Virus record (IMG/VR): IMGVR_UViG_3300049004_000016
Span: 32,001-96,000 of that record
Length of the DNA stretch: 64,000 nt
Origin: a virus
Lineage: Duplodnaviria; Caudoviricetes
Strand: one strand, 5' to 3'
A model generated the notes under the pieces. That model searched no databases. It saw nothing but the letters and a program-made list of their open reading frames with translations, and had not been told where the DNA came from. Position numbers and translations under genes: made by a program. Within the stretch, counting starts at the first letter, position 1. Every line of letters starts with the position of its first letter. Shown one piece after another: positions 4,671-41,437 of the stretch.

Positions 4671-5126
4671 ATGATCGACATCACCAGCAGGCCGGAGTAC
4701 AACCCGCTCGGCACCGTCAGGGGCAGCATCGGTGGCGGCTCCTGGGTCCTGACCGGTGTGTTCCTGCCAACCCCGGCACCCAACATGTGGGTATCGGTGC
4801 TCACCGGTGAGCATGTGACGCACCTGATGATCTCCCTGTCAGGGATGCCCGTGATCGGTGCAGTGCCAGGCACACCAGCGTGGGAGCTGTGGAAGAACTA
4901 CCGGATGTCCGTCGACACACAGTGCACGGCAGAGACGGATCTGGCTGACGGGCCAACCCGGTGCACGTTCGACGCCGACCACCGAGGGCAGCACTCATTC
5001 CAAGACCAGGTCATCAGACTGTGCGCCATCCAGCGCAGCGGCAGCTACTGCCGGCGGTTACGCGGCCACGACGGCCCCTGCGCCTGGCCGCCAGACGATG
5101 GCGACCACGAAGACACCTACCAGTAA
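4671..5126 (+). CDS. Hypothetical protein with two C-terminal C..C...H.G.H/C motifs
   Basis: GGAGAGG RBS and Cys/His-rich C-terminus. Confidence 0.6.
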   Translation: MIDITSRPEYNPLGTVRGSIGGGSWVLTGVFLPTPAPNMWVSVLTGEHVTHLMISLSGMPVIGAVPGTPAWELWKNYRMSVDTQCTAETDLADGPTRCTFDADHRGQHSFQDQVIRLCAIQRSGSYCRRLRGHDGPCAWPPDDGDHEDTYQ

Positions 5127-5139
5127 CGGAGCGTGCGTT

Positions 5140-6366
5140 GTGAAGATCTATGACCTGCTGGACATGGAAATGCTGGTCCACGCGCTGATCCCTGGCGGGT
5201 ACATCAGGGCACAGACCCACCCCGCGTGGCCTGACCTGGTGATCCTGAACTACACCGAGAAGTGCGCGTTCGAGCGCGCGTGGAACAAGATCACCAGCAC
5301 CTGCCGTGGCTTGATCTACAACGTGGCCACGGGGGAGGTCCTGGCGCGCCCGTTCCCGAAGTTCTTCAACTACGGCGAGCCCGGCGCACCGGAGATCCCC
5401 TTGGACACGCGGGTGGAGGTCACGGACAAACTGGACGGGTCACTCGGGATTCTGTACCCCACCCCGGATGGTGAGTGGGCGGTCGCGACTCGGGGCAGCT
5501 TTGATTCCGAGCAGGCACGCCACGCAACCAAGGTGTGGCAGCGCCGGTACGCGGACCAGTGCGGTCGGCTGGGGATTCCCTTCGCTGGTATGACGCTGCT
5601 GTTCGAGATCATCTACCCCGCCAACCGGATCGTGGTCGACTACAGCGACCTCGATGACCTGGTGCTGCTGGGTGCGGTGGAAATTGAGCACGGGTACTCG
5701 TTCAGCCCGTATGAGGATGAGGCAGTCGGCGACTGGCCCGGCCCGCGTGCGGTGTCCTTCGGGCATCCGACGCTGGCTGATGCGTTGGCGATGAAACCCC
5801 GTCCCGGTGCGGAGGGTGTGGTGGTGCGCCGGTGGCACTCCGAGGACAGGATCAAGCTCAAGCAGGACGAGTACGTGACCTTGCACCGTTTGATCACAGG
5901 GTGCACGGCGCGTCGGTTGTGGGAGAGCCTGGCGGTCAACGCGTGCGCGCCGCTGGGTGACACCAAGTCCCTGACCCGGCGGTTGTTCCTGGCACCGGAC
6001 CGTATCAACGGGATTCTGGAGATCGGCCCCGGCTGGTTGGAGCCGTTCACCACGCAGGTACCGGAGGAGTTCCGGGACTGGGTGATCCAACGGGTCCAGG
6101 AGATGACTGACGCGATCGAGCGCCGCCGGATGATGCTGGAGTTCAGCTTCGGGTTCCTCCTGTCCCAGGCTGGCCTCCCGATCAACGCGCCACGGGACCG
6201 GGAGACCAGCAAGCGGTTCGTGGAGGTCGCCCGCGCACAGGCAGGGGATGACTTCAACCTGATGATGTCGTTCTGGCGCGGCCACGAGATCGAGTCCACG
6301 TTGTGGCGGGAGATCCGCCCGGAACACGAGCTGCCCTACCGGGCAGTGGATGAGTCGGTGGCGTGA
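5140..6366 (+). CDS. T4 Rnl1-like RNA ligase
   Basis: CRGLI, ARPFPKFFN, motif I TDKLDGSLG, ATRGSF, FEIIYPANRIVV, EGVVV, RIKLK. Confidence 0.9.
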   Translation: MKIYDLLDMEMLVHALIPGGYIRAQTHPAWPDLVILNYTEKCAFERAWNKITSTCRGLIYNVATGEVLARPFPKFFNYGEPGAPEIPLDTRVEVTDKLDGSLGILYPTPDGEWAVATRGSFDSEQARHATKVWQRRYADQCGRLGIPFAGMTLLFEIIYPANRIVVDYSDLDDLVLLGAVEIEHGYSFSPYEDEAVGDWPGPRAVSFGHPTLADALAMKPRPGAEGVVVRRWHSEDRIKLKQDEYVTLHRLITGCTARRLWESLAVNACAPLGDTKSLTRRLFLAPDRINGILEIGPGWLEPFTTQVPEEFRDWVIQRVQEMTDAIERRRMMLEFSFGFLLSQAGLPINAPRDRETSKRFVEVARAQAGDDFNLMMSFWRGHEIESTLWREIRPEHELPYRAVDESVA

Positions 6367-6606
6367 TGCCGGCGCGGCGCGGGACTTGGCACCCGCCTCG
6401 CCCGGCGAGGAAACGCAAAGGCATCAGGCCGGGCATGTTGGTGATCTGCCCGTGGTGTGAGCGGTCGGGTGTGCACGTCACCAAGAAGGGTTTGATCGAG
6501 CATCCCGGTAGGGACCTCGACACCGGTGCGCCACCGTGTGTGGGGTCGGGTCAGCGGGTCGCTATCGGGGCGTTCGGTCGGATCATCAAGGAATCGGAGG
6601 CACGCA

Positions 6607-7020
6607 ATGAGCAGGCACAGGCACAACCGGGATCACTACCCCAGGAGGCCACGGCCGGTGAACCGGCCACCGGAACGGAAACCGGAGCTGGCCGCGACGA
6701 CTCCCAAGACGCGGAGGAGCCGACCCCCGGTGATCCGGTACGTGCCGGTGGTCAGGCACCTGCGTCGGCCCAAGCCCACACCGGTGGACCCACCCACTGA
6801 CCCACCGACGTTTGAGGTGGAGATCGAGTACCGGCACCGGCAGGTTGTGTGGTTGGAGGTCGCGTTGCTGATGGCGGTCACCGCATGGATGGGCTACTAC
6901 GTATACGTCCAGCACTCGACCTCGGTGTTCTTCCCCGGCGACGCTAAGTGGGTGTTCTGGGTGATGGTGGGAGCCACAGTGTGGACCACGATCGACAAAC
7001 TCGTGGATGAAAGGGAGTAG
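6607..7020 (+). CDS. Hypothetical membrane protein
   Basis: Basic N-terminus followed by two hydrophobic segments. Confidence 0.5.
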   Translation: MSRHRHNRDHYPRRPRPVNRPPERKPELAATTPKTRRSRPPVIRYVPVVRHLRRPKPTPVDPPTDPPTFEVEIEYRHRQVVWLEVALLMAVTAWMGYYVYVQHSTSVFFPGDAKWVFWVMVGATVWTTIDKLVDERE

Positions 7021-7025
7021 GAGCG

Positions 7026-7724
7026 ATGGACGTTCTGCTACTGGGGGTGGTCGGTTCCCACGCCTACGGCATGGCCCGCCCAGACTCCGACGTCGACACG
7101 TTGGGGGTGTACGCCGAGGAAACGATCAAGTTCCATGGGCTGAACCCACCGACCCGCGACCAGGCCACCAAACACACCACCAACCCGGACCTGACCATGC
7201 ACGAGGCCGGCAAGTTCGCGCGCCTCGCCCTGGCGGCCAACCCCACGGTGATGGAGCTGCTGTGGCTGCCGAAGTACACCGAGGCCAGCGCACTGGGGTA
7301 TCGGCTCGTGGGGTTGCGTCGCCAGTTCCTGTCCCAGCGGCTGGTCAAAGATTCCTACCTGGGGTACGCGACCCAGCAGTTCGTCAAGTTGAAGCAGGCC
7401 GGGAGGTTCCCGGACGTGCCGGTCGCGCGGGTCGCCAAGCACGCCCGTCACTTGCTGCGTCTGGTGGAGCAGGGCACCCATTTGTGGGTCACCGGTGAGC
7501 TGGTTCTCAAGGTCCCCGACGCCAAGCGCGTGTTCGACTTCGGTGACCGGGTCGCTGATGGTGATGTCGAGGCAGCGAAGTGGGTCATGAAGCGCGCTGA
7601 GGAGACTTTCGCCCACTCGCCCACGGTGCTGGCGACCGCACCGGACGCCGCTGCGGTGGAGTCGTGGCTGTTGGATGTCCGCGCGGCGTATTACCCGAGG
7701 GCCACAGCCTCCGCCAGCGGTTGA
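7026..7724 (+). CDS. Pol-beta superfamily nucleotidyltransferase (YcgL/NrdC.11-like)
   Basis: GSHAYG...DSDVD.LGVY signature, NPTVMELL, KHARHLLRL. Confidence 0.85.
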   Translation: MDVLLLGVVGSHAYGMARPDSDVDTLGVYAEETIKFHGLNPPTRDQATKHTTNPDLTMHEAGKFARLALAANPTVMELLWLPKYTEASALGYRLVGLRRQFLSQRLVKDSYLGYATQQFVKLKQAGRFPDVPVARVAKHARHLLRLVEQGTHLWVTGELVLKVPDAKRVFDFGDRVADGDVEAAKWVMKRAEETFAHSPTVLATAPDAAAVESWLLDVRAAYYPRATASASG

Positions 7725-7749
7725 CCTTGACCCCCCATGGGGGTAGGTT
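7721..7749 (+). promoter_or_regulatory. Promoter TTGACC-N17-TAGGTT
   Basis: Same architecture as the promoter at 4186, upstream of the PNK gene. Confidence 0.6.
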
Positions 7750-7796
7750 CATGGCTGTTGGCGACGGTCAACGACACGATACGGAGGGACAACGCA

Positions 7797-8756
7797 GTGA
7801 CCAAACTGATCATCACACGTGGGTTGCCCGGCAGCGGCAAAACCACCTGGGCACGGGAGTACCTGGCCAGCCAGCCACGCGGGTCAGTGATGCGCCTGAA
7901 CCGAGACGACCTCCGGCGCATGGGCATAGACGCCGGGTACGGCAAGCCGGAACGCGCCGTCGAGCAACGCATCAGCGTCGCCCGTGACGCAGCCCTACGG
8001 GACCTGCTGCGATCTGGGTGCGACGTCATCGTGGACGACACCAACCTGCGATCTAAGTACGTGCGCGACATGATGATCGTCGCCCAGGCCGCCGGTGCCG
8101 ATGTGCAGATCATGAACTTCACCTACGTCTCGCTGGAGGAGTGCATCCGCCGGGATTCCTGCCGGGAGTGGCCTGAGTGCGTCGGTGAGGAAGTGATCCG
8201 TGGGATGCACCTGCGGTACCTGGCCCAACACCACGGCAAGCCACCACCGGTGCCCGTGGTCGGGCCGCCCACCGCCACACCAGCGGCACCGGTGAAGGCG
8301 TACGTCCCACCGGCCCGGCCCGCGCCCCACGCTTTCCTGGTCGATCTGGACGGCACGCTGGCGTTGATGAACGGCCGGGGCCCCTACGACGAGACCTGTG
8401 TGATCGATGACCTGCCCAACACTCCAGTCATCGAAACGGTGCGTGCGTTGATCGGAAGGAGCTGGGACCCGATCTTCATGTCCGGTCGCACCGATGGGTG
8501 CCGGGCCGACACCGAGGTGTGGCTACTCAAGCACGTATTCGGGTCGGAAATGATCACCCCACGGCTGTACGCGCCGCTGCTGATGCGCGCTGCCGGTGAC
8601 ACGCGGCCGGACTCGGTGGTCAAGCTGGAACTGTTCAACGCCCACGTCCGCGACCAGTACAACGTGCGCCTAGTCCTCGATGACCGCGCGAGTGTAATAA
8701 AAATGTGGAGATCACTTGGCTTAACCGTGTTCCAAGTTGCGGAGGGGGACTTTTAG
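7797..8756 (+). CDS. Polynucleotide 5'-kinase/3'-phosphatase (T4 PseT-like)
   Basis: GLPGSGKTT, NRDDLR, VDDTNL, then HAD domain DLDGT, SGR, DDR. Confidence 0.93.
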   Translation: MTKLIITRGLPGSGKTTWAREYLASQPRGSVMRLNRDDLRRMGIDAGYGKPERAVEQRISVARDAALRDLLRSGCDVIVDDTNLRSKYVRDMMIVAQAAGADVQIMNFTYVSLEECIRRDSCREWPECVGEEVIRGMHLRYLAQHHGKPPPVPVVGPPTATPAAPVKAYVPPARPAPHAFLVDLDGTLALMNGRGPYDETCVIDDLPNTPVIETVRALIGRSWDPIFMSGRTDGCRADTEVWLLKHVFGSEMITPRLYAPLLMRAAGDTRPDSVVKLELFNAHVRDQYNVRLVLDDRASVIKMWRSLGLTVFQVAEGDF

Positions 8757-8794
8757 TCGTGCATTCTGATCAATACACGGAGGATCAACCGATC

Positions 8795-9451
8795 ATGAAC
8801 ACCGAGTACCAGAAGGTCAACACAGTGTGGAAACGCGACCCGCGCGGCCGGGTCCTGGCCGGTGAGTACTCCTGCCCGGAGTTCGGGTACCTCGCCGAGC
8901 TGGATTGGTTGTGGACGGAGAAGGTCGACGGCACCAACATCCGGCTGCGCTACGACGGCACCGAGAACTTCCGCGCCAACACCCACACCTACGTCGCGGG
9001 CCGGACCGACAACGCCCAACTACCACCGAAACTGCTCAATGTCCTGATGGCGATCATGGAAGACGCCCCGTTTGAGGTGCTGTTCGGTGACGGCCGAAAC
9101 GACGTGACCCTCTACGGGGAGGGGTACGGCGCCAACATCCAGAAAGGTGGCGGCAAGTACAAACCGGACGGCTGCGACTTCGTCCTGTTCGACGTCAAGA
9201 TCGGCAACTGGTGGCTGATGCGCTCCGACGTCGAGGAGATCGCCACCAAACTCGGGCTCGACGTCGTCCCGATCATCGGCACCGGCCCCCTGCAAGCCGC
9301 GATCGAACTGGTCGCCGAGGGGTTCCCGTCCGCGCGGTGGCCCGGAGTCGACATCGCCGAGGGCCTGGTATGCCGGCCACAGGTGGAACTGATCGACCGT
9401 GGCGGCCACCGCATCCTCACCAAGATCAAGCACAAGGATTTTCGCCGGTGA
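8795..9451 (+). CDS. Second ATP-dependent RNA ligase (compact, Rnl2-like nucleotidyltransferase domain)
   Basis: TEKVDGTNI, LYGEGYG, FVLFDV, VVP, EGLVCRP, TKIK. Confidence 0.85.
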   Translation: MNTEYQKVNTVWKRDPRGRVLAGEYSCPEFGYLAELDWLWTEKVDGTNIRLRYDGTENFRANTHTYVAGRTDNAQLPPKLLNVLMAIMEDAPFEVLFGDGRNDVTLYGEGYGANIQKGGGKYKPDGCDFVLFDVKIGNWWLMRSDVEEIATKLGLDVVPIIGTGPLQAAIELVAEGFPSARWPGVDIAEGLVCRPQVELIDRGGHRILTKIKHKDFRR

Positions 9452-30721: not shown

Positions 30722-30735
30722 CTGGGGGTAGGCCG

Positions 30736-32250
30736 GTGACAGCGACGATTACCGGCCTTGACCTCGCCGCGTGGTCCAGTGCCTTGGACCGTTTGGACCC
30801 ACCACAGATCGATGTGTTCGGGAAGCTGGAATACGTCCCGACACCCAAACAGCAAATGTTCCATGACGCTACTGAGTTCGATGTGCTGTTCGGTGGGTCC
30901 CTCGGTGGTGGCAAGACCCGCGCGTTGACCATGGAAGCGATTAGGGCGTGCATCCGGTATCCCGGTATCCGGGTCGGGGCGTTTCGGAGAACCTACGGTG
31001 AGCTGAAAGAGTCGCTGCTGGCTGAGCTGATGCAAATCAACTACGCGGCAGCGGTGCGCGCGAAGTGGAACGGGTCGGATTACGAGCTGCGGTTCCCCAA
31101 CGGCTCGGTGATCATGTTCCGGTATGCGGAGTCCATGCAAGACGCCACCCGGCGTCAAGGTGGCCAGTACCAGTTGCTGATCTTCGATGAGCGGACGTTG
31201 ACACCCCCGGATGTAGTGTCCTTCCTGGAGTCCCGGCTGCGATCCGGCCGCAAGTCCATCCCGGTGCTCGGTATCAGATCCAGCGCGAACCCCGGTGGAC
31301 CTGGGCACGGCCGGGTGCGCGTGAAGTACGTCGATGCCACCAACTACGGCACCAAAGTCGTCCACGACGAACGCGGCCGGACCATCCGGTTCATCCCGTC
31401 ACGCATGGAAGACAACCCCCACCTGAACCCCGAGTACGAGAACGACCTCCTGGCGCTGCCTGAGGTGTTGCGGCGTGCCCTGCGTGAGGGCGACTGGGGT
31501 GTGTTCTCCGGTCAGGTGTTCTCCGAGTTGTCCCGTGACCGCCATGTGGTGGCACCGATCAACCTGCCGTTGTCGTGGCTGCGGTACAACGGCGTGGACT
31601 GGGGTTACGCCAAACCGTGGGCTGTGCTGTGGGCTGCCGTTGATGAGGACGGCCGGGTGTGGATCTACCGGGAGCTGTACGCCACCGGTGTGGGGGAAGC
31701 GGAGCAGGCCAGACGCATCCTGGCCGCTGAGGCCGACGATGAGAAAGTCACGGTCAGGTACGCCGACGACGCCATGTGGGCGACCCGTGGTGACGCCAAA
31801 CCGATCTCCGACATTTACGCCGAGAACGGTGTCCACCTCACGGAGGCCGGCAAGGGCGCCGGGTCGCGGATCATCGGCTGGCAACGCATCCACTCCTACC
31901 TGGACAACGGGCCCGCGTGCCCCCACCACCGTGCCCTGGGGTGGACCGAGTGCCCGATGCTCCACATTTTCGACACGGTGGAGAACCTGTGGCGGGAGCT
32001 GCGGGACCTCCCACACGCCACCAAAGGTGACCCTGAGGACGCGGACACCACCGCATCCGATCACGCCGCTGACGGGCTGCGTTACCTGCTGATCAACCTG
32101 GGGACCGCGCCACGGTTCCATTTCCCGCCCACCCAACCGGAGGTGACGGTGCTTGACCCCGCCGCCACCGGGCCACGTCCACCGCAGCCACTACCGACGA
32201 TGTACGGCGGGTTCCCCGTCGCGACTGAGGGGACGTCGATATGGGGCTGA
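30736..32250 (+). CDS. terL: Terminase large subunit
   Basis: Walker A GGSLGGGKT, Walker B IFDE, ANPGGPGH, DNPHL, VDWG, DHAADGLRY. Confidence 0.93.
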   Translation: MTATITGLDLAAWSSALDRLDPPQIDVFGKLEYVPTPKQQMFHDATEFDVLFGGSLGGGKTRALTMEAIRACIRYPGIRVGAFRRTYGELKESLLAELMQINYAAAVRAKWNGSDYELRFPNGSVIMFRYAESMQDATRRQGGQYQLLIFDERTLTPPDVVSFLESRLRSGRKSIPVLGIRSSANPGGPGHGRVRVKYVDATNYGTKVVHDERGRTIRFIPSRMEDNPHLNPEYENDLLALPEVLRRALREGDWGVFSGQVFSELSRDRHVVAPINLPLSWLRYNGVDWGYAKPWAVLWAAVDEDGRVWIYRELYATGVGEAEQARRILAAEADDEKVTVRYADDAMWATRGDAKPISDIYAENGVHLTEAGKGAGSRIIGWQRIHSYLDNGPACPHHRALGWTECPMLHIFDTVENLWRELRDLPHATKGDPEDADTTASDHAADGLRYLLINLGTAPRFHFPPTQPEVTVLDPAATGPRPPQPLPTMYGGFPVATEGTSIWG

Positions 32251-33899
32251 GGTCGTTCGTGCGGGAGGTGTTCGGTCGCAGCGAGGTGCAGGAGAAGCCC
32301 GCCGCTACGGCACCGGTCCTGGAGCCACCAACGCCCAAGCAGGCCCGCCGCGCTGGTTTCGAGTACGGCATCCCACTGGGCAACGGTGGTGGTGGCCTGG
32401 ATGTGTCCCGTCAGGTGTCGGCTGGTGCGGAACGCCAACAGACCCTGGCGCAACTCCACCAGCTCTACATGACCTGCGACTGGGTTTCCAGCTCCGTGGA
32501 TGTGGTGGCGCGGACGGTCACTGCCGGCGGGTTGCAGGTGGTGTCAGAGTCCGACGTCCCGGAAGGTGAGCAACCGGCTGATCCCCCGGAGGTCCAGCGC
32601 CTCAAGCGGTTGATGAAGTTCTGCAACCCGCGTGAGGACATGATCCAGTTGCTGCGCAACGTGGTCACGGACCTGGAGTTGTTCGGGGACGCCTACCTGG
32701 AGATCGTGGTTCTGCTGGGTGAGCCGATCGCCCTGTACACGCTCGACGCCACCACGATGACGGTGCTGTCCGATGAGCACGGGGAGGTCAACGGCTACCA
32801 CCAGGACGTTGACGGAGTCCGCACGGCCACGTTCGGCCCCGACGAGGTGATCCACTTCTCGTTGGACGCGCCCCGTGGTGGTTTGTACGGTGTCGGACCG
32901 GCGCAGAAGGTGCTGTTCCCGGCTACTGCGTGGCTGTTCGCCATGGCAACCCTCAAGGAATGCTTCCGCCGGGGTGACCCCCCGCGTATCCACGTTGACC
33001 TGGGTCATTTCCAGGACGGTGACGTGCAGCGGTGGCGTGAGCAGTACATGGTCAACAACCTGGGGCCCAAAGCTGTCGGCACCCCCATCTTGACCACTGG
33101 TGGTGGCGGGGTTCAGGTCCTCGACCCCCACAAGGTCGGGGATTACCTGGAGGCGTGCCGCAGCCTGCGGGATGAGATCGTTTCCGCGTTCGGTGTGCCC
33201 CCCGCGAAGGTCGGCATCATTGAGACCGGCAACCTCGGTGGTGGCACTGGTGAGGCGCAAGACAAAACATTCCGCATCAACACCATTATCCCCATTACCG
33301 CGATCATTCTGGAGAAACTGAATTTCCACCTGCTACAGGTCGGTTTCAAAATAACCAATTACGTCCTGGAGTTCAAAGAGATCGACTACCGGGATTCAGA
33401 AGTGGTGGAGAAGATCCGTGACATGCGTTTGCGGAATGGCTCCTACACCCTGAACCGGTACCGGGATGAGATTGGTGAACCACCGGTTGATGGTGGTGAT
33501 GATGCTGTCCTGGTCGACCGCACCCACATCGTGGCGTGGGTCGATATGGAAGCGATGTCCAAGGCGACCATCGCGACCGCTGTGGCGCCGTTGGTCACGG
33601 CCGGTGTCAACGGGTATGTGCCTGGTGTGCCGGACGCGGAGGAACCGGAACCACCGGCGGCACTGGCTGGTGTCCACCCTGCCGCGCTTGCTGACCCCAA
33701 GGCAGCACCGGGTGGCGCGAAGGACGCGACCCAGGGCAAGGCCCCACCGGAAGGCAAGGACGGCCAAGGCAAGGCACCGAAGGAAACACTGGATGTGCGT
33801 GATCAGCGCCGGTTGTCAGAGTCGTGGCAGCGGGCCTACCGTGCTCGCCGCGCCCAGGCGTTGCGTGAGCTACCTGACCGGGAGTTGATCGACGCATGA
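32241..33899 (+). CDS. Portal protein
   Basis: Follows terL. GDAYLEI, EVIHF, EIVSAFGVPP, TLN.YR..G.PP..GGD. Confidence 0.9.
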   Translation: MGLRSFVREVFGRSEVQEKPAATAPVLEPPTPKQARRAGFEYGIPLGNGGGGLDVSRQVSAGAERQQTLAQLHQLYMTCDWVSSSVDVVARTVTAGGLQVVSESDVPEGEQPADPPEVQRLKRLMKFCNPREDMIQLLRNVVTDLELFGDAYLEIVVLLGEPIALYTLDATTMTVLSDEHGEVNGYHQDVDGVRTATFGPDEVIHFSLDAPRGGLYGVGPAQKVLFPATAWLFAMATLKECFRRGDPPRIHVDLGHFQDGDVQRWREQYMVNNLGPKAVGTPILTTGGGGVQVLDPHKVGDYLEACRSLRDEIVSAFGVPPAKVGIIETGNLGGGTGEAQDKTFRINTIIPITAIILEKLNFHLLQVGFKITNYVLEFKEIDYRDSEVVEKIRDMRLRNGSYTLNRYRDEIGEPPVDGGDDAVLVDRTHIVAWVDMEAMSKATIATAVAPLVTAGVNGYVPGVPDAEEPEPPAALAGVHPAALADPKAAPGGAKDATQGKAPPEGKDGQGKAPKETLDVRDQRRLSESWQRAYRARRAQALRELPDRELIDA

Positions 33900-34210
33900 C
33901 AACGCATGTCGACCAAGCGATGCCGGTGCACCACCCTGGTGTGCCCAGTGTCCAGGCTGCTGTGCGTGCCGACCTGGTGGCACGGGAGGGGGTGGGTGTC
34001 GAGCGGTACGGCACCCCACTCCAGCCGTTCAACGGACGCAGCGCACTACGGGACGCCTATGAGGAGGCGCTGGACTTGGCGTGCTATCTCAAGCAGGCGC
34101 TGATCGAGCAGGAAATGAGGGCAACCCATGGTGGGGACACAGTCGTGTGGTGTGGCACCGCTGGTGATCACCCCGGTGCGGGAGGTGCCGGCGATCCAGT
34201 GGCCGGATGA
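33896..34210 (+). CDS. Small phage protein, possible MazG-like alpha-helical NTP pyrophosphatase
   Basis: G.ERYGT.L...AYEEALDLACYL. Confidence 0.5.
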   Translation: MTTHVDQAMPVHHPGVPSVQAAVRADLVAREGVGVERYGTPLQPFNGRSALRDAYEEALDLACYLKQALIEQEMRATHGGDTVVWCGTAGDHPGAGGAGDPVAG

Positions 34211-34524
34211 GTCACCGAGCCCAGCGTTCTGGGCCTGGTACCTGGCACGTTTCGATCATGAGCGGGAGGCGGATTCATGAACGAGCAAGGCCACCCCACC
34301 AGGGCCCAGGACGTCACACAGTTGATCCAGAAGCGCATCGGGTAATTCCCCCTAGATCCCACCCAATGAATAGGGGTGTGGCGCGGTCCGGTGCACCGGG
34401 TCCACCCGCGCCACACCCCACCTAAGCTGCCTGGCCGTGGCCGGGTGGGTGGTGCTGTGGGTGTCGCTGGTCGCCGGGCTGGTAGCGGCACTGTGGTGGC
34501 AAGCCACCCGGTAGCTTCACTGGG

Positions 34525-34833
34525 GTGCTGTTCCCCGCGTTGACTGACTGGCCGGTGTGGGTGTTCTCGATCGGCACGGTCGTCGCGGTGTGCCTATGCC
34601 TGGGGGAACCGGATGGTGACGGAGGCGTTCTGCCTGGCGTGGTCCCTGCTGGTGTTTTCGACGGTCGGACTGGGGTGGCTGACGTGGACCCTGCTAGCCA
34701 TGGCCATCCCTCGCCCGCGTGGATCGAAACGATGATGCAGTGGATCAACAAACCGTCGATGGTGGTGGCGTTGGGTCTGCTAGCGCTCGGTGTGGTGCTG
34801 ATCATCGTGTTGCGGCCCCGTGACCGGCGGTGA
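34525..34833 (+). CDS. Hypothetical membrane protein
   Basis: Two hydrophobic segments and a basic tail. Confidence 0.4.
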   Translation: MLFPALTDWPVWVFSIGTVVAVCLCLGEPDGDGGVLPGVVPAGVFDGRTGVADVDPASHGHPSPAWIETMMQWINKPSMVVALGLLALGVVLIIVLRPRDRR

Positions 34834-35024
34834 CCGCTCCCAGGGTGGGTGGGTGTTCACCACCGTGGGCGGTGAGCTGTTCATCCCCTGGCCCATGTCC
34901 AGCACCAAAGCCGAACGCCTCGCCGAGGACTTCTGCCAGCGCGTCGGGTGGCCATCACCATCCACCCAACGATTCCTGATCCCCGCGCCGGTCACGAAGG
35001 CGACCAAACCGAAAGGAACCGGCA

Positions 35025-36542
35025 GTGGACGGCGGAATGATCGCGCTACTCCCCGAAGACCCCACCGCGCTGGTCGTTGACAGTAAGAACGCGGAACCGG
35101 CCTCGGAAATACACCTGACGCTGGTCTATCTGGGTGATGACCTGACCGGGTGGGACGACGCCAAACAGGAACGGTTCATCACCCACATCTCCAACGCTGT
35201 CGACGGTGCCGGCGCCATCGAGGCGCGGGTCATGGGCCACGCCACGTTCAACCCTGATGGTGGCCCGGACGGTGACCGTGAGACGTGCGCGGTGCACCTG
35301 GTAGGGGACAGCACTGAGCTCTACCCCCTCCACAAGACGCTGGCCGACACCAGCCGGGCGCTCCTCGGCGCGGACTTTCCCCAACAGCACCAGCCGTTCC
35401 TGCCCCACATCACCGCCGGGTACGGGCTGGCCGCCGGGGATTTGACCTACACCGGGCCGATCGTGTTCAACCGTCTAGTGGTGGCGTTGGCCGGGCGGTG
35501 GGCGGAGATCTCCCTGGTGCCCCCACCGGGGGATGAGGCGATCGCCCCCTACGCCCGCACCGCCTACGCCCAGGGGTGGGCCGCATCCGGGGGGCCGATG
35601 ACCGAACGGGTCCGCGCTGGGTGTGTCGCCGCTGTGGAGTTGGCCATCATCAACGCCGACCAGCCGGGCATCCTTGAGGCCACCATGCAGCTCGGCAAGC
35701 TGGAAGGCACGTGGGCTGCGGTGTACGCCCGCCGGGAGGCTCTGGTCGCCAAGCACCTGCCGGTGGTGCTGGCAGCGTGGCGCCGCGCCGCGCACATGCT
35801 CAACGTCAACGCAGCCATCGACCGGTACAGGCAATCCCTCGGTGTCACTGAGGCCGTGGACATCGACAACACCGACCACCGGCGCATGGTCGCCAACAGC
35901 ATCGCCCAATCCGTGGCGTCGGCTATCGCTGGACCGGATGCGTTGCCGGCCGACCGGGAAACGATCGTGATGGCCGTCGCCGACGCACTGCGGGACGCGC
36001 AAGCGGAGGGCACCGCCGGGGCGATCGTCGCTGGAGCGGATCAGCTCGGTGTGGCCGGGACATCATTCGACCTGGCATTCGCTGACGCCCACCAGGCCCT
36101 CGGGGATCTGGGTAACTACTGGGGTCAGGGCAGTGGGTGGGTCGACCGCATGGTGTCCGGTACCGCCACGGACCTCGGTGGCCGGTTGTCGACGCTGGCC
36201 GCTGACAAAGCCAGCTACGACGACATGCTGACGGCCGCCATGGACGTCATCGGTGGTGACGACATCCGGTCTGTGGAGACCATCCTGGATTTGGCGATGG
36301 GCCAGTCATTCAGTCGTGGCGCCCTGGCGCTGTATGGGCGTGAGGGTGTGACCCAGGTCGATTACGTGACCGCTGGTGGGGAGAACGTGTGCCCGTTGTG
36401 CATCAACGCTGAGTCGGGGAGCCCGTGGGATCGGACGTCGGCGCCGGTTCCACCGCTGCACCCCTATTGCCGGTGCAACCTCCAGGCCACCAACCCCATG
36501 CAGGGCTTGACGGGGTTACTGACCCAGTACCTCGCCAGTTAG
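35025..36542 (+). CDS. MuF-like head protein fused to an N-terminal 2H phosphoesterase domain
   Basis: HLTL and HITA (two HxT motifs) at the N-terminus, CPLC...PPLHPYCRC at the C-terminus. Confidence 0.85.
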   Translation: MDGGMIALLPEDPTALVVDSKNAEPASEIHLTLVYLGDDLTGWDDAKQERFITHISNAVDGAGAIEARVMGHATFNPDGGPDGDRETCAVHLVGDSTELYPLHKTLADTSRALLGADFPQQHQPFLPHITAGYGLAAGDLTYTGPIVFNRLVVALAGRWAEISLVPPPGDEAIAPYARTAYAQGWAASGGPMTERVRAGCVAAVELAIINADQPGILEATMQLGKLEGTWAAVYARREALVAKHLPVVLAAWRRAAHMLNVNAAIDRYRQSLGVTEAVDIDNTDHRRMVANSIAQSVASAIAGPDALPADRETIVMAVADALRDAQAEGTAGAIVAGADQLGVAGTSFDLAFADAHQALGDLGNYWGQGSGWVDRMVSGTATDLGGRLSTLAADKASYDDMLTAAMDVIGGDDIRSVETILDLAMGQSFSRGALALYGREGVTQVDYVTAGGENVCPLCINAESGSPWDRTSAPVPPLHPYCRCNLQATNPMQGLTGLLTQYLAS

Positions 36543-36551
36543 GGGGGACCT

Positions 36552-36797
36552 GTGGGCACGATGCGAGAGCGCATGATGGCCCGCCGGGCCGCTGACCGTG
36601 ACCAGGACGCCACCGATGAGCTGGCGGAGGTCATCACCGATGTGGTCGCGGAGATCTTCGATGAGTTGCTGATCGAGGCGCTGAAACAGCCGGACATCCG
36701 CACCGCCATCAGCAACCTGGTGTCGGCCAGCAAACGCCCGGTGGCTACCCGGATGCCGGCGCGTGCGTCTGCGGTGAAGGCCCAACGCCACCGGTAA
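36552..36797 (+). CDS. Hypothetical protein
   Basis: ORF between MuF and protease with RBS. Confidence 0.45.
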   Translation: MGTMRERMMARRAADRDQDATDELAEVITDVVAEIFDELLIEALKQPDIRTAISNLVSASKRPVATRMPARASAVKAQRHR

Positions 36798-37065
36798 CGC
36801 GGCCCTTGCGGTGTCGCCCACCGGGCTGCGACTCCAAGATCACAATGCGGGTTGCAGGCCACTGACCAGCTAGCCGGTCGGTCTCAGCCAGCAGGATCTT
36901 GCGGCGGATGTCTTCGATAAGGGCCATGACGTCCCCCTCCGGGCGCGCGGTCACCAAGGTGTTCAGCCACATGGCCCGAGCTGGACTCGCGCAATTTAAC
37001 GCTACTGACCGTCATGGCGCACCGCCGGACGGTTACTTGCTGGTGAGCTAAAGAGGGAGACACCC

Positions 37066-38877
37066 GTGACTGACGGCACTATCGCGACCATCAACGGGAC
37101 GATGCTGGTGCCCGGTGTGTCCCTGAACCGTCGCCTGTACACCCCGGAGCTGATCGAGAAGACCGTCAAGCGCATGAAGGCCCGCATCGCTGACCCTGAC
37201 GGTCTGCCGATCGTGATGCGGACCCACCACGGTGCTGGTGATGACTCCAAGCTGATCGTGGGGCGGATCTCTGATGTGAGCCTCGGTGAGGGTGGGGCAG
37301 CGAAGTACAAAGCTGACCTGTACGACACCCACGCCGGTCGTGACATCGCCGCGCTGGCCACCCCGAAGAAGCCGGCACTGCGGTCCACCAGCATCCACGG
37401 GTACTGGCTCGGTCCGGTCACGACCGTCGACTACGACGGCCAGCGCGTGGAGACAGCCGATGACCTGGACATCGACGCGATCGACTTCACCCACACCCCT
37501 GGTGTGACCGGTGCGGTGTTGGACCTGGCCCCGGCTGGTGCTCAGGAGTCGGTCGCTGTGCGGACCCCGATCCAGGAGACGGTGGATGCCACGGTTACAC
37601 CGGCGGTTAATGAGATCGGTGAGGCGATTATTGAGGCTAAGGACCCCAAGAAACCGTATGGGGATGTCCAATACGCCGATCCTGGTTATCAGAAGGACGG
37701 CAAAAAACGGTACCCGCTGGACACTAAAGCCCATATCCGTGCCGCGTGGAGCTATGTCAATCAGGCCGATAACGCGAAAGAGTACACCCCTAAGCAACTG
37801 GCCCGCATCAAGGCGAAGATCAAGGCGGCCATGAAGAAGATCGGAGCGGATGTGGCGAAGGAAACCGAAACAACCCGGTGGGGTGAATTGCGGGAGTACT
37901 ACCCTGACGGTCCTGATGGTCAAGCCGGGTTCTGTGTGGACGCCTACAACGGGCCTATTTCGTTGACGGTGCGCGCGTATTCGGTTGACCCCTCTGATTT
38001 GCGGGCTGTTGCTGGTGCCGCGATGACAGCGGCGTGTGATGCGTTGCAGGCACTGGACCCCGATATGGACGGTGATATTGACGTCGGAACGGGGGAGGCC
38101 ACACCGGACGGTGAGACGCCCGCGACGGAGGCCGTCCACATTCAGACGGCAGGAACTGTGGTCACCGGTCAGGACCTGACCGAGGAGACCCAGCGCGCCC
38201 TGACGCGCACCACACCGGTCGCTGAGGCCCAGGCGCCGCCCGCTGACCCGCCCACACCCCCACCGGCGCCCGCCACTGAAACGTCCCCCGCCCAACCGGT
38301 CGAGGGCAGCACCAACACCGAGAAGGAGCCCGCCGTGAGCGAGCCAACCCAGGCGGCCGAAACCACGGCAGCCCCGACCCGCACTCTGACCGACGCTGAC
38401 GTTTCGGCGATCGGTGAGACCATCGGCGCGGCTTTCGCTGCCGCGTTGAAGGCGAACACCCCACCGGCCCCGGCGCCCGTCGCCGCCGCACCGGCCCCAG
38501 CCACCGCACCAGCGACCGAGACCGCTCCCCCCGCCACCGAGGCTGCACCGAAGGTGGACGCTGGGCAGGCGTTGAAGGAAACCGCTGCCGCTGCAATCGC
38601 TGAGGCCACCGCAGGGCTACGCACCGAGCTGACCACGTCAGTGCAGGAGACCGAGGGTCGCATCCTGACCGCTGTGCGGGAGGAACTGCAACGCCTCGGG
38701 ATTCGCCCGTCGCGTCAGGGCTTCCGTGTCCACGAGAACGACCAGGTGGACCCGACGCCTGCCGCAGCGTTCGAGGACCGCGCCAACATCCTGTTGGGTG
38801 ACTTCGCTAAGACCCCAGTGCCCCACGCCGGCACCGGCATCGCCCCGGCAGCTACTGGGGTCACCGCCACGGGCTGA
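37066..38877 (+). CDS. Capsid maturation protease/scaffold fusion with DUF6582-like insert
   Basis: G.S.N.R.Y, H, SIHG, IDFT..PG protease-like N-terminus, KKPYGDVQYADPG..RYPLDT..H.RAAWSY insert, Ala/Pro scaffold tail. Confidence 0.75.
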   Translation: MTDGTIATINGTMLVPGVSLNRRLYTPELIEKTVKRMKARIADPDGLPIVMRTHHGAGDDSKLIVGRISDVSLGEGGAAKYKADLYDTHAGRDIAALATPKKPALRSTSIHGYWLGPVTTVDYDGQRVETADDLDIDAIDFTHTPGVTGAVLDLAPAGAQESVAVRTPIQETVDATVTPAVNEIGEAIIEAKDPKKPYGDVQYADPGYQKDGKKRYPLDTKAHIRAAWSYVNQADNAKEYTPKQLARIKAKIKAAMKKIGADVAKETETTRWGELREYYPDGPDGQAGFCVDAYNGPISLTVRAYSVDPSDLRAVAGAAMTAACDALQALDPDMDGDIDVGTGEATPDGETPATEAVHIQTAGTVVTGQDLTEETQRALTRTTPVAEAQAPPADPPTPPPAPATETSPAQPVEGSTNTEKEPAVSEPTQAAETTAAPTRTLTDADVSAIGETIGAAFAAALKANTPPAPAPVAAAPAPATAPATETAPPATEAAPKVDAGQALKETAAAAIAEATAGLRTELTTSVQETEGRILTAVREELQRLGIRPSRQGFRVHENDQVDPTPAAAFEDRANILLGDFAKTPVPHAGTGIAPAATGVTATG

Positions 38878-38902
38878 CCGCTAGGCACCACCCACCACCC
38901 GT

Positions 38903-38933
38903 CCCGCCATGCCGTGAGTGTGGCGGGTTTTTT
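38903..38933 (+). terminator. Intrinsic terminator-like hairpin before the capsid gene
   Basis: CCCGCCA/TGGCGGG stem followed by T6. Confidence 0.65.
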
Positions 38934-38953
38934 CATGCCAAGAAAGAGCCACA

Positions 38954-40312
38954 ATGCCTAGTGAACTCCAGGAGGCACTGACCACCGCAGGGTCAGTGAC
39001 CCCCTTTATCCCAAAGTCTATTGACCCGGTACTCCTTGAGTACCAGCGTCGGTACGCGCCATTGCTGGCCGCTATCCCAACCAAGCAATGGAATAGCACC
39101 CAGTACTTCTTCAACCGTCGTGTCGCGCGCCCCGATTCCGGTGGTGTCGTTGACGGTGGTGCTAGGCCGATCGGTAACAGCGTTTACGAGCAGGCAGTGT
39201 TCAACATTCGCCTGTTCCAGGCCGTGGGTTCGGTGACCGGGTTCGCCCAGACCGTGACTCGTGACCTTGTCGGTGACCTGCGTCAGATGGAACTTGACGG
39301 CACGGTCACCAGCATGATGTGGACGCTGGAGAACACCCTGATCTGGGGTCACGACGGTGCCACAGTCGCCGGTCAGTACCCGATCTGCTCCGGTCTGGAC
39401 TACCTGGTGTCCAACTGGGTCGCCGGGTCTGGTTCCAATGCGTTCGTCAACTCCATTGATCAAGCCGGTGGCACTTTCGTGCTGCGGTACCTGGACCAGT
39501 TGATGGACATTGTGGAAACCAACGCCGCGATGCCGGTGGGGTCTTCCCACATGTTCCTGATGTCGCCGCGTATGGCGTCGTCTGTGTCGCAGGTCCTGAT
39601 GTCTCAGCAGCGTTTCGAGGCCCCCACCACCACCATTGGTGCCGGCCTGAACGTGCCGACTTACCGTGACGTGCCGATCGTGAAGACGTCGTTCCTGTCT
39701 CCGCGCGCGAACCAGCAGGGCACCGTCACCACCGGCACCGCGACCACTGGTGGGACGTTGGCCGCTGCCACGTACTCCTACAAAGTGGCGGCAGTGATCG
39801 CGCGGTTCGGTGAGATCCAGGCCAGCGTTGAGGTGTCCCAGGCGACCACCGGTTCCACCTCCACCGTGACCCTGACCGTGGCTGCACCGGCGAACATGCC
39901 TGATGGTGCTGCCCCGATCCTGTACAAGATCTACCGCTCCACTTCCACCGGCGCGGAGACCCTGCTCGGTGTTGTGGACGCGTTCGACACCACCGGTGCC
40001 GCTGTCACCACCATCACCGACACCGGCACCAACCTGCTCACCAACGGTTCAGGCAACACCGGCCCGGCTGCCTACCAGGGCACCAACGTCGGCGCGCTGC
40101 CGCGCACTGGGGTCCATGAGGACGTGTACCTGGTGCCACGGGACCCGAACTTCCTTGTTCGCCCCTACACCCGCGACATGCAGATCATTCCGCTGTCGCC
40201 CACGGTGACCGCCCCGGACACCCTGCCGTTCGCCGTCTTGACGGACACGTGCCTCGCGGTTCGTGCACCCAAGTACGTCGGCCGGTTGTCCCGTGTGATC
40301 GCCAGCCTGTAA
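38954..40312 (+). CDS. Major capsid protein (with Thr/Gly-rich beta-sandwich insertion)
   Basis: Position after scaffold, ENTLIWG..GLD and YRDVPIV HK97-fold-like motifs, highly biased codon use. Confidence 0.8.
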   Translation: MPSELQEALTTAGSVTPFIPKSIDPVLLEYQRRYAPLLAAIPTKQWNSTQYFFNRRVARPDSGGVVDGGARPIGNSVYEQAVFNIRLFQAVGSVTGFAQTVTRDLVGDLRQMELDGTVTSMMWTLENTLIWGHDGATVAGQYPICSGLDYLVSNWVAGSGSNAFVNSIDQAGGTFVLRYLDQLMDIVETNAAMPVGSSHMFLMSPRMASSVSQVLMSQQRFEAPTTTIGAGLNVPTYRDVPIVKTSFLSPRANQQGTVTTGTATTGGTLAAATYSYKVAAVIARFGEIQASVEVSQATTGSTSTVTLTVAAPANMPDGAAPILYKIYRSTSTGAETLLGVVDAFDTTGAAVTTITDTGTNLLTNGSGNTGPAAYQGTNVGALPRTGVHEDVYLVPRDPNFLVRPYTRDMQIIPLSPTVTAPDTLPFAVLTDTCLAVRAPKYVGRLSRVIASL

Positions 40313-40395
40313 TCCCCACCCGGACTCCCAGGGGGCGTGGCCTACCGCGCTCGGCTGCGCCCCTTGGGTCCATTTCACTGGAGACGAGGTTCCTT

Positions 40396-40713: not shown

Positions 40714-40729
40714 CAGATAAGGATTCGCC

Positions 40730-41056: not shown

Positions 41057-41076
41057 ACGGAAAGCGAGATCACGTC

Positions 41077-41412: not shown

Positions 41413-41437
41413 CCGCGCGGCGTCCAGGGGGTGACGT

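What the first reader, a model, noticed from the sequence alone, without database searches (positions are those of the whole stretch)
35025..36542. 2H phosphoesterase (Acb1-like) fused to the MuF head protein
Seen: an N-terminal domain of about 165 aa with two intact HxT motifs (HLTL, HITA) joined to a MuF-type C-terminus. Known: the anti-CBASS protein Acb1 is a 2H phosphoesterase that degrades cyclic oligonucleotides, and MuF proteins are low-copy head components that can carry effector domains. Inference: a virion-delivered nuclease against cyclic-nucleotide immunity. Alternatively it is a 2',3'-cyclic phosphate healing enzyme complementing the RNA repair genes.
Basis: partly seen in the sequence, partly recalled or inferred. 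Interest (0 to 1): 0.7.

Follow-up and report, generated by a model that had tools for sequence, protein, structure and literature searches.

The report
Phage head protein carrying 2H phosphoesterase
The gene after the portal in this 115-kb actinobacterial phage fuses an apparently active two-histidine (2H) phosphoesterase to a MuF-type minor head protein; this is a common, already published kind of capsid-loaded enzyme whose substrate nobody has tested.

Summary
ORF 35025-36542 (+, 505 aa) has an N-terminal 2H phosphoesterase domain (about residues 1-166; HLTL at 30-33, HITA at 128-131). It matches Pfam PF13563 above the cut-off, the AF2 model has pLDDT 93, and the fold match to Thermus LigT has Z 15.

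The C-terminal part (about 172-505) is a MuF/SPP1-gp7-type minor head domain. It carries the PPLHPYCRC motif, 11 of 55 homologues match PF04233, and its fold matches predicted minor capsid and head-morphogenesis proteins.

Both catalytic histidines are invariant in 55 fused homologues. The 2H module is optional: 43 of 80 related viral loci have it, and 37 have the MuF part alone with no 2H gene nearby.

"Acb1-like" is only loosely true. The clade lies between ThpR/LigT (hhalign P 1e-10) and Acb1 (P 5e-7), nearer ThpR. This protein does not match the Acb1 Pfam model and has no free C-terminal lid.

The RNA-repair alternative is not favoured. The Pnkp, Rnl1 and Rnl2 genes lie about 26-30 kb away, and Pnkp presence does not track the fusion (3/10 against 3/12 records).

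2H-MuF and 2H-portal fusions, and the injected counter-defence idea, were published by Iyer et al. in 2017 and 2022. This scan has already noted the theme 55 times on other DNA. It is a new member of a known kind with an untested substrate.

The parts
35025..36542 (+). Whole gene: 505-aa 2H phosphoesterase-MuF fusion (GTG start; stop included)
   Evidence: ORF list and translation. The same continuous ORF occurs in 43 related IMG/VR loci.
35013..35017 (+). Shine-Dalgarno-like AAGGA, 7 nt before the GTG start
   Evidence: Read directly from the sequence. An ATG at 35037 (M5) is an alternative start that would remove only 4 residues.
35025..35522 (+). 2H phosphoesterase domain, about residues 1-166
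   Evidence: PF13563 at 32.1 bits, cut-off 27. phrog_2659 at 4e-30. AF2 pLDDT 93. Foldseek and VIA match LigT, CPDase and Usb1 at Z 13.7-15.0.
35112..35123 (+). First catalytic motif, H30-L-T32-L
   Evidence: H30 and T32 are invariant in 55 homologues. They align to the first HxT of PH0099, ThpR and T4 Acb1 H44/T46.
35406..35417 (+). Second catalytic motif, H128-I-T130-A
   Evidence: H128 is invariant and T130 is at least 90% conserved. They align to T4 Acb1 H113/T115 and the ThpR second HxT.
35517..35537 (+). Pro-rich linker, about residues 165-171 (VPPPGDE), between the two domains
   Evidence: pLDDT falls to 58-85 at the end of the N-domain model. The C-only homologues begin just after this point.
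35538..36539 (+). MuF / SPP1-gp7-type minor head domain, residues 172-505: mostly helical with a small Cys-rich end
   Evidence: AF2 pLDDT 89.5. BFVD matches to minor capsid and head morphogenesis proteins and MuF-ART fusions, E down to 2.8e-6. PF04233 in 11 of 55 homologues. About 335-aa stand-alone homologues, some named SPP1 gp7 family.
36390..36476 (+). Conserved C456-x2-C459 ... P-P-L-H479-P-Y-C482-R-C484 MuF end motif
   Evidence: C459, H479, C482 and C484 are invariant; C456, P480 and R483 are at least 90% conserved. The TIGR01641 and PHROG minor-head sub-threshold hits fall on residues 417-486.
32241..33899 (+). Context: portal protein, the expected docking partner of MuF
   Evidence: PF04860 at 1.3e-26 and phrog_12 at 9e-40.
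30736..32250 (+). Context: large terminase
   Evidence: PF03237 Terminase_6N at 4.9e-10.
37066..38877 (+). Context: 603-aa head-module protein (DUF6582; Ala/Pro/Thr-rich tail), probably a scaffold and/or protease
   Evidence: PF20223 at 6.3e-16 only. Its role is inferred from its position between MuF and the capsid gene.
38918..40312 (+). Context: major capsid protein
   Evidence: phrog_752 at 8.4e-31 and PF17236 SU10_MCP.
4858..9451 (+).
   Evidence: PF09511 at 7e-15; PF25109 HAD_PNKP at 4.6e-47 plus AAA_33; PF09414 at 1.9e-17.

Best explanation
The gene encodes an optional enzyme cargo attached to the N-terminus of a MuF/gp7-type minor head protein. Shown: an intact, strongly conserved 2H active site on a LigT-like fold; a MuF-type C-terminal domain; a position in the late head operon after the portal gene; and facultative presence of the 2H module within this MuF family. 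Inferred from SPP1 gp7 biology: the MuF part binds the portal, so one or a few copies enter the procapsid and leave with the DNA at infection. The protein is also made late, together with the capsid proteins. Inferred chemistry: the two HxT motifs catalyse metal-independent attack on a phosphodiester next to a ribose 2'-OH. The most likely targets are host-made immune nucleotides (3'-5' or 2'-5' linked cyclic or linear oligonucleotides of CBASS, type III CRISPR or related systems) or RNA ends and 2',3'-cyclic phosphates created by host RNases. In either case the enzyme would serve counter-defence rather than head assembly. I put about 0.3 on nucleotide signals specifically and about 0.3 on RNA or RNA ends.
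For: Catalytic tetrad: H30, T32 and H128 are invariant and T130 is at least 90% conserved in 55 fused homologues and in 45 differently built members of the clade. Fold: pLDDT 93, VIA Z 15.0. MuF identity: plus the motif. Optional module: 43 of 80 related IMG/VR loci are fused, and 37 carry the MuF part alone with no 2H ORF within +/-6 kb. The domain is therefore dispensable for assembly, as expected of an accessory effector. The same 2H clade is repeatedly attached to other capsid-targeted proteins: Phage_portal 7, Portal_Mu 1, Phage_Mu_F 4 and prohead proteases 4 of 45 sampled. It also occurs alongside ADP-ribosyltransferase, NUDIX and Zeta-toxin-like domains. In cultured actinophages it lies just after the portal (ScottMcG gp92, Phrappuccino gp50) or inside MuF or protease fusions (Xkcd426 gp12, Ali17 gp16). 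SPP1 gp7 is targeted to the procapsid interior by the portal in a few copies and supports initiation of infection (PMC6316719, section 3.8; PMC5576092). The hypothesis is published in PMC5512222 and PMC9503650. Acb1 shows that a phage 2H enzyme can destroy CBASS signals (PMC9117128).
Against: There is no direct evidence of virion incorporation, ejection or any substrate for this protein or any homologue. My literature searches found no proteomic or biochemical test. MuF copy number is low, 1-2 per capsid in SPP1, so an injected dose would be tiny. Known MuF cargo (polymorphic toxins) sits C-terminal to MuF, whereas here it is N-terminal. The nearest solved relatives are RNA-end enzymes (ThpR/LigT, CPDase, Usb1), not signal nucleases. 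The Acb1-specific lid and base-stacking residues could not be found.
Confidence: 0.6

Rival explanations
1. It is an RNA-end healing enzyme: a ThpR-like 2',3'-cyclic phosphodiesterase that works with the phage's Pnkp and RNA ligases to repair tRNAs or mRNAs cut by host ribonucleases, and is possibly delivered early by the virion.
For: The closest solved structures and profiles are ThpR/LigT and CPDase: Z 13.7-15.0, PDB profile hits at 2e-7 to 1e-5, and hhalign against actinobacterial ThpR at P 1e-10. The genome encodes Rnl1-like, Pnkp and Rnl2-like genes. Nine of 45 other members of the clade carry a P-loop kinase next to the 2H domain, reminiscent of kinase-CPDase healing cassettes.
Against: The repair genes are about 26-30 kb away in a different module. 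Pnkp's own phosphatase domain is a known means of healing such ends. Pnkp is present in 3 of 10 fusion-bearing records and 3 of 12 records with MuF alone, so there is no association, although the sample is small and partly incomplete. TIGR02258 scores 15.4 bits against a cut-off of 65.7. The fused kinases score as Zeta-toxin-like (57-78 bits) rather than Pnkp-like AAA_33 (20-36 bits). Iyer et al. 2017 report that this kind of 2H domain never associates with RNA ligases (PMC5512222).
Confidence: 0.2
2. It is an offensive RNase of the Usb1 type that trims or degrades host RNAs after injection. This is the first of the two options proposed by Iyer et al. 2017.
For: Human Usb1 ties with LigT among fold matches: Z 14.6, rmsd 2.8, 151 residues aligned. 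The architecture parallels PBECR RNase-MuF/portal fusions (PMC5512222, section 'The 2H phosphoesterase domain').
Against: Sequence identity to Usb1 is 8%, and no sequence-level hit to Usb1 appeared in the Pfam or PDB profile searches. A fold match alone does not separate 2H activities.
Confidence: 0.1
3. The 2H domain has a role in head assembly or maturation, or is a non-catalytic structural appendage, and has nothing to do with host conflict.
For: It always sits in head-module proteins (MuF, portal, protease) in many actinophage lineages.
Against: The catalytic residues are invariant, which argues for catalysis. Thirty-seven of 80 close MuF relatives lack the domain altogether, with no substitute nearby, so it is not needed to build heads.
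Confidence: 0.07

Closest known systems
2H phosphoesterase domains fused to MuF or portal in phage 'polyvalent' or head-packaged proteins (Iyer, Burroughs, Anand, de Souza, Aravind 2017, PMC5512222; Iyer, Burroughs, Anantharaman, Aravind 2022, PMC9503650)
   Same: The same two domains in one polypeptide in the head module, with the same proposed logic: packaged in the head, injected, and then degrading nucleotide signals or acting as an RNase.
   Different: Nothing in kind. This is an uncultured 115-kb actinobacterial phage member. The domain order is 2H then MuF, and the protein is a simple two-domain one rather than a long polyvalent chain.
Actinobacteriophage head-associated 2H domains (phrog_2659, phrog_18402): Streptomyces phage Xkcd426 gp12, Gordonia phage Ali17 gp16, Mycobacterium phages ScottMcG gp92 and Phrappuccino gp50
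   Same: The same 2H clade at 31-44% identity, found in 382 cultured actinophage records. It is always just downstream of the portal or inside head proteins.
   Different: In Xkcd426 the order is MuF (residues 121-241), then 2H (about 270-434), then more sequence, in a 1178-aa protein. In Ali17 the domain is inside a 920-aa 'head maturation protease'. In Bixzunavirus and Phrappuccino it is free-standing. No cultured phage in the collection shares this C-terminal MuF domain beyond weak local hits.
Acb1 (T4 gp57B, Erwinia phage FBB1; Pfam PF23474; PDB 7T26/7T27)
   Same: A phage 2H enzyme with an HxT/HxT tetrad. hhalign gives P 5e-7 over 91 columns spanning both motifs. Extra positions are shared: G71-H72 = T4 G69-H70, H122 = H105, D95-S96 = D87-S88 and Y133 = Y118.
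   Different: Acb1 is a compact stand-alone protein of about 152 aa with a free C-terminal lid (W147) and defined base-stacking residues (PMC9117128). This protein gives no PF23474 hit. The fold match is weaker than to LigT (Z 10.8, 126 residues aligned). No free C-terminus or conserved Trp exists after the domain.
ThpR/LigT RNA 2',3'-cyclic phosphodiesterases (TIGR02258; Thermus TT0787 1IUH, Deinococcus 5H7E, Pyrococcus PH0099 1VDX, E. coli 5LDI)
   Same: These are the best fold and profile matches, with the same 'HxTLxFLG'-like first motif and similar domain size.
   Different: They are cellular stand-alone enzymes. TIGR02258 scores only 15.4 bits against a cut-off of 65.7. This domain has family-specific H72 and H122, which are absent from PH0099 in the alignment.
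MuF polymorphic toxins (Jamet et al. 2017, PMC5576092) and SPP1 gp7
   Same: A MuF/gp7 scaffold used to carry an accessory domain into the capsid. Relatives of this very MuF family carry ADP-ribosyltransferase and other extensions (P0113; L027, L049 and L078).
   Different: In those toxins the cargo is C-terminal and is a toxin. Here it is N-terminal and is a phosphoesterase.

Membership tests
2H phosphoesterase superfamily (Pfam PF13563 / LigT clan) | Two H-x-T/S motifs | tested here: met
   HLTL at residues 30-33 and HITA at 128-131. H30, T32 and H128 are invariant and T130 is at least 90% conserved in 55 homologues.
2H phosphoesterase superfamily (Pfam PF13563 / LigT clan) | Profile match above the curated cut-off | tested here: met
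   PF13563 at 32.1 bits against a cut-off of 27, E 1.5e-7. Forty-five of 55 homologues match.
2H phosphoesterase superfamily (Pfam PF13563 / LigT clan) | 2H fold | tested here: met
   AF2 pLDDT 93. VIA Z 15.0 / rmsd 3.3 / 156 residues aligned to 1IUH, with 44 solved 2H entries at Z >= 10.
ThpR/LigT equivalog (NCBIfam TIGR02258) | Score at or above the equivalog cut-off | tested here: not met
   15.4 bits against a cut-off of 65.7. Streptomyces prophage homologues reach 38-45 bits, while genuine ThpR genes in the same genomes score 104-114 bits.
Acb1 anti-CBASS nuclease (Pfam PF23474) | Profile match to PF23474 | tested here: not met
   No hit at E<=1 for this protein. Eighteen of 55 homologues match weakly, best E 7.1e-6. 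The two relatives whose PF23474 scores were printed gave 22.9 and 24.4 bits, below the cut-off of 27.
Acb1 anti-CBASS nuclease (Pfam PF23474) | HxT/HxT catalytic tetrad (H44, T46, H113, T115) | tested here: met
   hhalign aligns H30/T32 and H128/T130 to T4 H44/T46 and H113/T115.
Acb1 anti-CBASS nuclease (Pfam PF23474) | Compact stand-alone fold with a free C-terminal lid (residues 145-152, W147) | tested here: not met
   The chain continues into MuF. There is no conserved Trp or other conserved residue after F148 in the 28-sequence domain alignment. The VIA alignment to 7T26 stops at model residue 157.
Acb1 anti-CBASS nuclease (Pfam PF23474) | Base-stacking Y12, W74, F107 and adenine-reading E141 | tested here: inconclusive
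   The hhalign alignment covers T4 residues 27-119 only. W74 falls next to invariant F75, F107 lies in a loop that is shorter here, and Y12 and E141 are not aligned.
Acb1 anti-CBASS nuclease (Pfam PF23474) | Cleavage of 3'3'-cGAMP and other cyclic oligonucleotides | not testable with these tools
   This needs biochemistry.
MuF / SPP1 gp7 minor head protein (PF04233, TIGR01641) | Profile match | tested here: inconclusive
   This protein gives no PF04233 hit at E<=0.1, and TIGR01641 scores 15.5 bits against a cut-off of 39.65, at residues 417-486. Homologues: PF04233 in 11 of 55, best E 6.6e-6, and some sources name them SPP1 gp7 family.
MuF / SPP1 gp7 minor head protein (PF04233, TIGR01641) | Conserved C-terminal H-P-x-C-R-C end of the domain | tested here: met
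   PPLHPYCRC with H479, C482 and C484 invariant. The same motif is found in other MuF-bearing clade members.
MuF / SPP1 gp7 minor head protein (PF04233, TIGR01641) | Fold like other MuF proteins | tested here: met
   BFVD Foldseek gives 29 hits at E<=1e-3, with about 280-320 aligned columns. The named hits are minor capsid or head morphogenesis proteins, plus one MuF-ART fusion. No solved structure is available for comparison.
MuF / SPP1 gp7 minor head protein (PF04233, TIGR01641) | Gene next to the portal gene in the head module | tested here: met
   The order is TerL, portal, about 1.1 kb of small ORFs, this gene, scaffold-like gene, major capsid gene.
MuF / SPP1 gp7 minor head protein (PF04233, TIGR01641) | Binds the portal and is present in virions | not testable with these tools
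   This needs virion proteomics or pull-downs.
MuF polymorphic toxins (Jamet 2017) | N-terminal MuF followed by a C-terminal toxin domain | tested here: not met
   The accessory domain is N-terminal and is a phosphoesterase. The protein ends 21 residues after the MuF motif.

The most novel reading that the evidence does not exclude
The 2H domain is a pre-made immune-signal nuclease carried in the capsid. It would enter with the DNA, and would also be co-produced with the capsid proteins that trigger CBASS-type sensors, destroying cyclic oligonucleotide or 2'-5' oligoadenylate alarm signals. That would make it the first virion-delivered anti-signalling enzyme, from a 2H clade distinct from Acb1 and found in thousands of actinobacterial phages.
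Probability: 0.25. Interest if true: 0.6.

Novelty: new member of a known kind. Interest (0 to 1): 0.3.

Why it matters
If tested, this clade could show whether phages load signal-degrading or RNA-end enzymes into their capsids. The profile search found 7,809 protein clusters at 50% identity, and the domain occurs in 382 cultured actinophage genomes. The mechanism has been predicted since 2017 but never demonstrated. The many SEA-PHAGES isolates carrying the domain make the test easy. As a finding in this window it is ordinary: the architecture and the hypothesis are in print, and the scan has met the theme many times.

Tried and rejected
- Megablast of 30000-42000 against cultured phages found nothing. 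The phage has no close cultured relative.
- Foldseek of the C-domain against the PDB gave no hit at E<=0.001. Only predicted viral structures helped.
- I looked for a split form, a separate 2H gene next to MuF-only homologues. There was none within +/-6 kb in 37 loci.
- I tested linkage to RNA repair through Pnkp co-occurrence in 21 related records and found no association. The sample is small and several records are incomplete.
- Literature searches found no virion proteomics or biochemistry for 2H-MuF proteins ([bad term], 49, 63, 64, 65).
I took context from the search for related loci instead.
- A single-sequence comparison first suggested that Acb1 was closer than E. coli ThpR. With proper family profiles the order reversed. 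The first ThpR alignment contained one mis-framed row (L159), so I removed it and repeated the run, with the same result.
- Loci from the two unpublished genomes (G024, G041) were not used in any alignment or claim.
- I did not pursue the idea that the fused Zeta-like kinases are polynucleotide kinases, because they score far better as Zeta toxin than as AAA_33.
Full report
**Observation.** The window is bases 32001-96000 of a 115,285-bp IMG/VR virus record with direct terminal repeats. GC is about 65%.

It lies in a standard late head module:
- QueD, QueE and FolE at 29032-30721
- large terminase at 30736-32250
- portal at 32241-33899
- about 1.1 kb of small ORFs
- this gene
- a 603-aa scaffold-like protein at 37066-38877
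- the major capsid protein at 38918-40312

**N-terminal domain.** Residues 26-139 match Pfam PF13563 (2'-5' RNA ligase/2H superfamily) at 32.1 bits, above the cut-off of 27. Residues 2-164 match phrog_2659 at 4e-30 and phrog_18402 at 8e-27. The two motifs are HLTL (30-33) and HITA (128-131).

In an alignment of 55 full-length homologues from metagenomes, H30, T32 and H128 are invariant and T130 is at least 90% conserved. The same holds in 45 differently built proteins carrying the same domain.

An AlphaFold model of residues 1-178 has mean pLDDT 93. The fold matches are as follows:

| Structure | VIA Z | Foldseek E |
|---|---|---|
| Thermus TT0787 (1IUH) | 15.0 | 2e-6 |
| Deinococcus CPDase (5H7E) | 14.9 | – |
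| human Usb1 | 14.6 | – |
| Pyrococcus PH0099 (1VDX) | 14.3 | – |
| E. coli LigT | 13.7 | 1e-6 |
| rotavirus VP3 | 12.6 | – |
| Acb1 (7T26, 126 residues aligned) | 10.8 | 6e-5 |
| Burkholderia phage BCSR5 phosphodiesterase | 10.8 | – |
| penguinpox cGAMP PDE | 10.3 | – |

The domain is a genuine, apparently active 2H phosphoesterase.

**C-terminal domain.** Taken alone, residues 172-505 give no Pfam hit. They give only weak PHROG hits to minor head and head morphogenesis families at residues ~437-487, and a sub-threshold TIGR01641 (SPP1 gp7) hit of 15.5 bits against a cut-off of 39.65.

Family-level evidence settles the assignment:
- PF04233 Phage_Mu_F matches 11 of 55 homologues, best E 6.6e-6.
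- Several stand-alone homologues of about 335 aa are named SPP1 gp7 family by their sources.
- The conserved end CxxC...PPLHPYCRC is present, with C459, H479, C482 and C484 invariant.
- The named weak tblastn hits in cultured phages are mostly MuF-type genes: 'portal and MuF-like fusion protein', 'MuF-like protein', 'minor head protein' and MuF-ADP-ribosyltransferase fusions.
- The AlphaFold model (pLDDT 89.5) matches predicted minor capsid, head morphogenesis and MuF-ART proteins in BFVD down to E 2.8e-6.
- No solved structure matches it.

**Distribution and architecture.** About 60 protein clusters at 90% identity share the full 2H-MuF architecture. Many others are the MuF part alone or carry different extras, including an intein, or PI3/4-kinase-like plus ADP-ribosyltransferase domains.

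Among 80 related IMG/VR loci, 43 encode the fusion and 37 encode only the MuF part. A script using HMMs of both halves found no separate 2H ORF within +/-6 kb in any of the 37. The 2H domain is therefore a facultative add-on, not a part of head assembly.

Prophage copies occur in Streptomyces and related genera, so the host range is Actinomycetota.

An exhaustive profile search with the 2H domain alone found 7,809 representative clusters at E<=1e-3 and 243 at E<=1e-30. Protein lengths ran from 129 to 3,693 aa, with the domain at the start, middle or end. In 45 sampled members that are not of the ~500-aa type, the partner domains were:
- Phage_portal 7
- Portal_Mu 1
- Phage_Mu_F 4
- prohead proteases 4
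- Zeta-toxin-like P-loop kinase 9
- ADP-ribosyltransferase 3
- NUDIX 1
- inteins

In cultured actinophages (382 records) the domain takes several forms:
- free-standing just after the portal (ScottMcG gp92, Phrappuccino gp50)
- embedded in a 920-aa 'head maturation protease' (Ali17 gp16)
- placed after the MuF domain in the 1178-aa 'capsid maturation protease and MuF-like fusion protein' of Streptomyces phage Xkcd426 (MuF at residues 121-241, 2H at about 270-434)

The window protein has the opposite order, 2H then MuF.

**Is it Acb1-like?** Only loosely.
- This protein has no PF23474 hit at E<=1. Eighteen of 55 homologues match weakly, against 45 for PF13563 and 25 for LigT_PEase.
- A PDB profile search gave PH0099 at 2e-7, TT0787 and drCPDase at 1e-5, and Acb1 (9Q2G) at 0.0019.
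- I built a 28-sequence alignment of the domain, a T4-type Acb1 alignment and an actinobacterial ThpR alignment (loci from the unpublished genomes were left out). The hhalign results are in the table below.

| Comparison | Prob | P | Score |
|---|---|---|---|
| this clade vs ThpR | 97.0 | 1e-10 | 68.5 |
| this clade vs Acb1 | 92.4 | 5e-7 | 46.2 |
| Acb1 vs ThpR | 36.5 | 3.7e-4 | – |

The head-associated clade thus lies between the two families, nearer ThpR. It is a member of neither: TIGR02258 scores 15.4 bits against a cut-off of 65.7.

It does share a few extra positions with T4 Acb1 that PH0099 lacks: G71-H72, H122, D95-S96 and Y133. Acb1's defining free C-terminal lid with W147 (PMC9117128) cannot exist here, and nothing is conserved after F148.

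**RNA repair alternative.** The window does encode an Rnl1-like ligase, Pnkp and an Rnl2-type ligase. They are about 26-30 kb upstream in another module, and the genome has only this one 2H domain. Among related viral records, Pnkp is present in 3 of 10 with the fusion (including this genome) and 3 of 12 without it. That gives no sign of linkage, though the sample is small. Iyer et al. 2017 made the same point for this class of 2H domains.

**Mechanism.**
- Shown: an intact 2H active site on a MuF carrier in the late head operon, optional within the family, and recurrently attached to capsid-targeted proteins.
- Inferred from SPP1 gp7, which is targeted to the procapsid interior by the portal in a few copies and is needed for efficient initiation of infection (PMC6316719, PMC5576092): the protein is packaged and leaves with the DNA.
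- Inferred: it performs metal-independent cleavage next to a ribose 2'-OH on host immune nucleotides or RNA ends. I add, as inference only, that late co-expression with capsid proteins could matter as much as injection.
- The substrate cannot be decided by computation.

**Prior knowledge.** Iyer et al. 2017 (PMC5512222, section 'The 2H phosphoesterase domain') describe 2H fusions to MuF or portal. They propose either a Usb1-like RNase role or degradation of nucleotides made by nucleotide-activated defences. Iyer et al. 2022 (PMC9503650, section 3.4.5) state that such fusions suggest head packaging and injection to counter signalling by SMODS, cyclic mononucleotide and CRISPR systems. I found no experimental test.

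This scan's own index holds 55 earlier notes on the same theme in at least 53 other genomes, with the same conclusions. I reached mine independently before reading them.

**Verdict.** Its interpretation is plausible, but it is already published, untested, and too specific in naming Acb1. I classify it as a new member of a known kind, of modest interest.

Noticed in passing
window 29032-30721, with upstream ORFs 27501-29035: QueD (PF01242), QueE (radical SAM) and GTP cyclohydrolase I sit directly before the terminase, forming a 7-deazaguanine DNA-modification module. The ORFs just upstream (27501-28646 and 28640-29035) have no Pfam match. Earlier notes of this scan already cover this module as a QueC-less cluster.
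   Followed up: partly
P0142, P0155, P0169, P0178, P0183, P0187, P0216 (proteins): Nine of 45 other members of this 2H clade combine it with a Zeta-toxin-like P-loop kinase in proteins of 639-1600 aa. The kinase-plus-2H pairing recalls kinase-CPDase RNA-healing cassettes, but the kinases score as Zeta toxin (57-78 bits) rather than polynucleotide kinase (AAA_33, 20-36 bits).
   Followed up: partly
window 35538-35615 (residues 172-197): The most conserved stretch of the whole protein is the start of the MuF part, IAPYARTAYAQGWAASGGPMT. It forms the extreme N-terminus of the homologues that lack the 2H domain. Its role is unknown; it could be portal docking or a processing site.
   Followed up: no
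window 37066-38877: A 603-aa protein lies between MuF and the capsid gene. It has only a DUF6582 match (residues 193-265) and a long Ala/Pro/Thr-rich tail. It is probably a scaffold or protease-scaffold, but no protease family was detected by Pfam, PHROGs or NCBIfam.
   Followed up: partly
L049:5501-12967 (IMGVR_UViG_3300047160_017214): One relative carries the same 2H-MuF unit at the start of an open frame of more than 2,400 aa that runs off the locus, a giant polyvalent head protein.
   Followed up: no
L095:1592-2411 (phage T4, NC_000866 73591-74410): T4 acb1 (57B) lies immediately next to ipI, the gene for an internal virion protein that is injected with the DNA. This is a curious neighbourhood given the head-cargo theme, and the record still annotates 57B as 'RNA ligase'.
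   Followed up: no
window 33896-34210: A small ORF after the portal matches several PHROGs of unknown function (phrog_11184 at 3e-15) that are also found as C-terminal parts of longer phage proteins.
   Followed up: no
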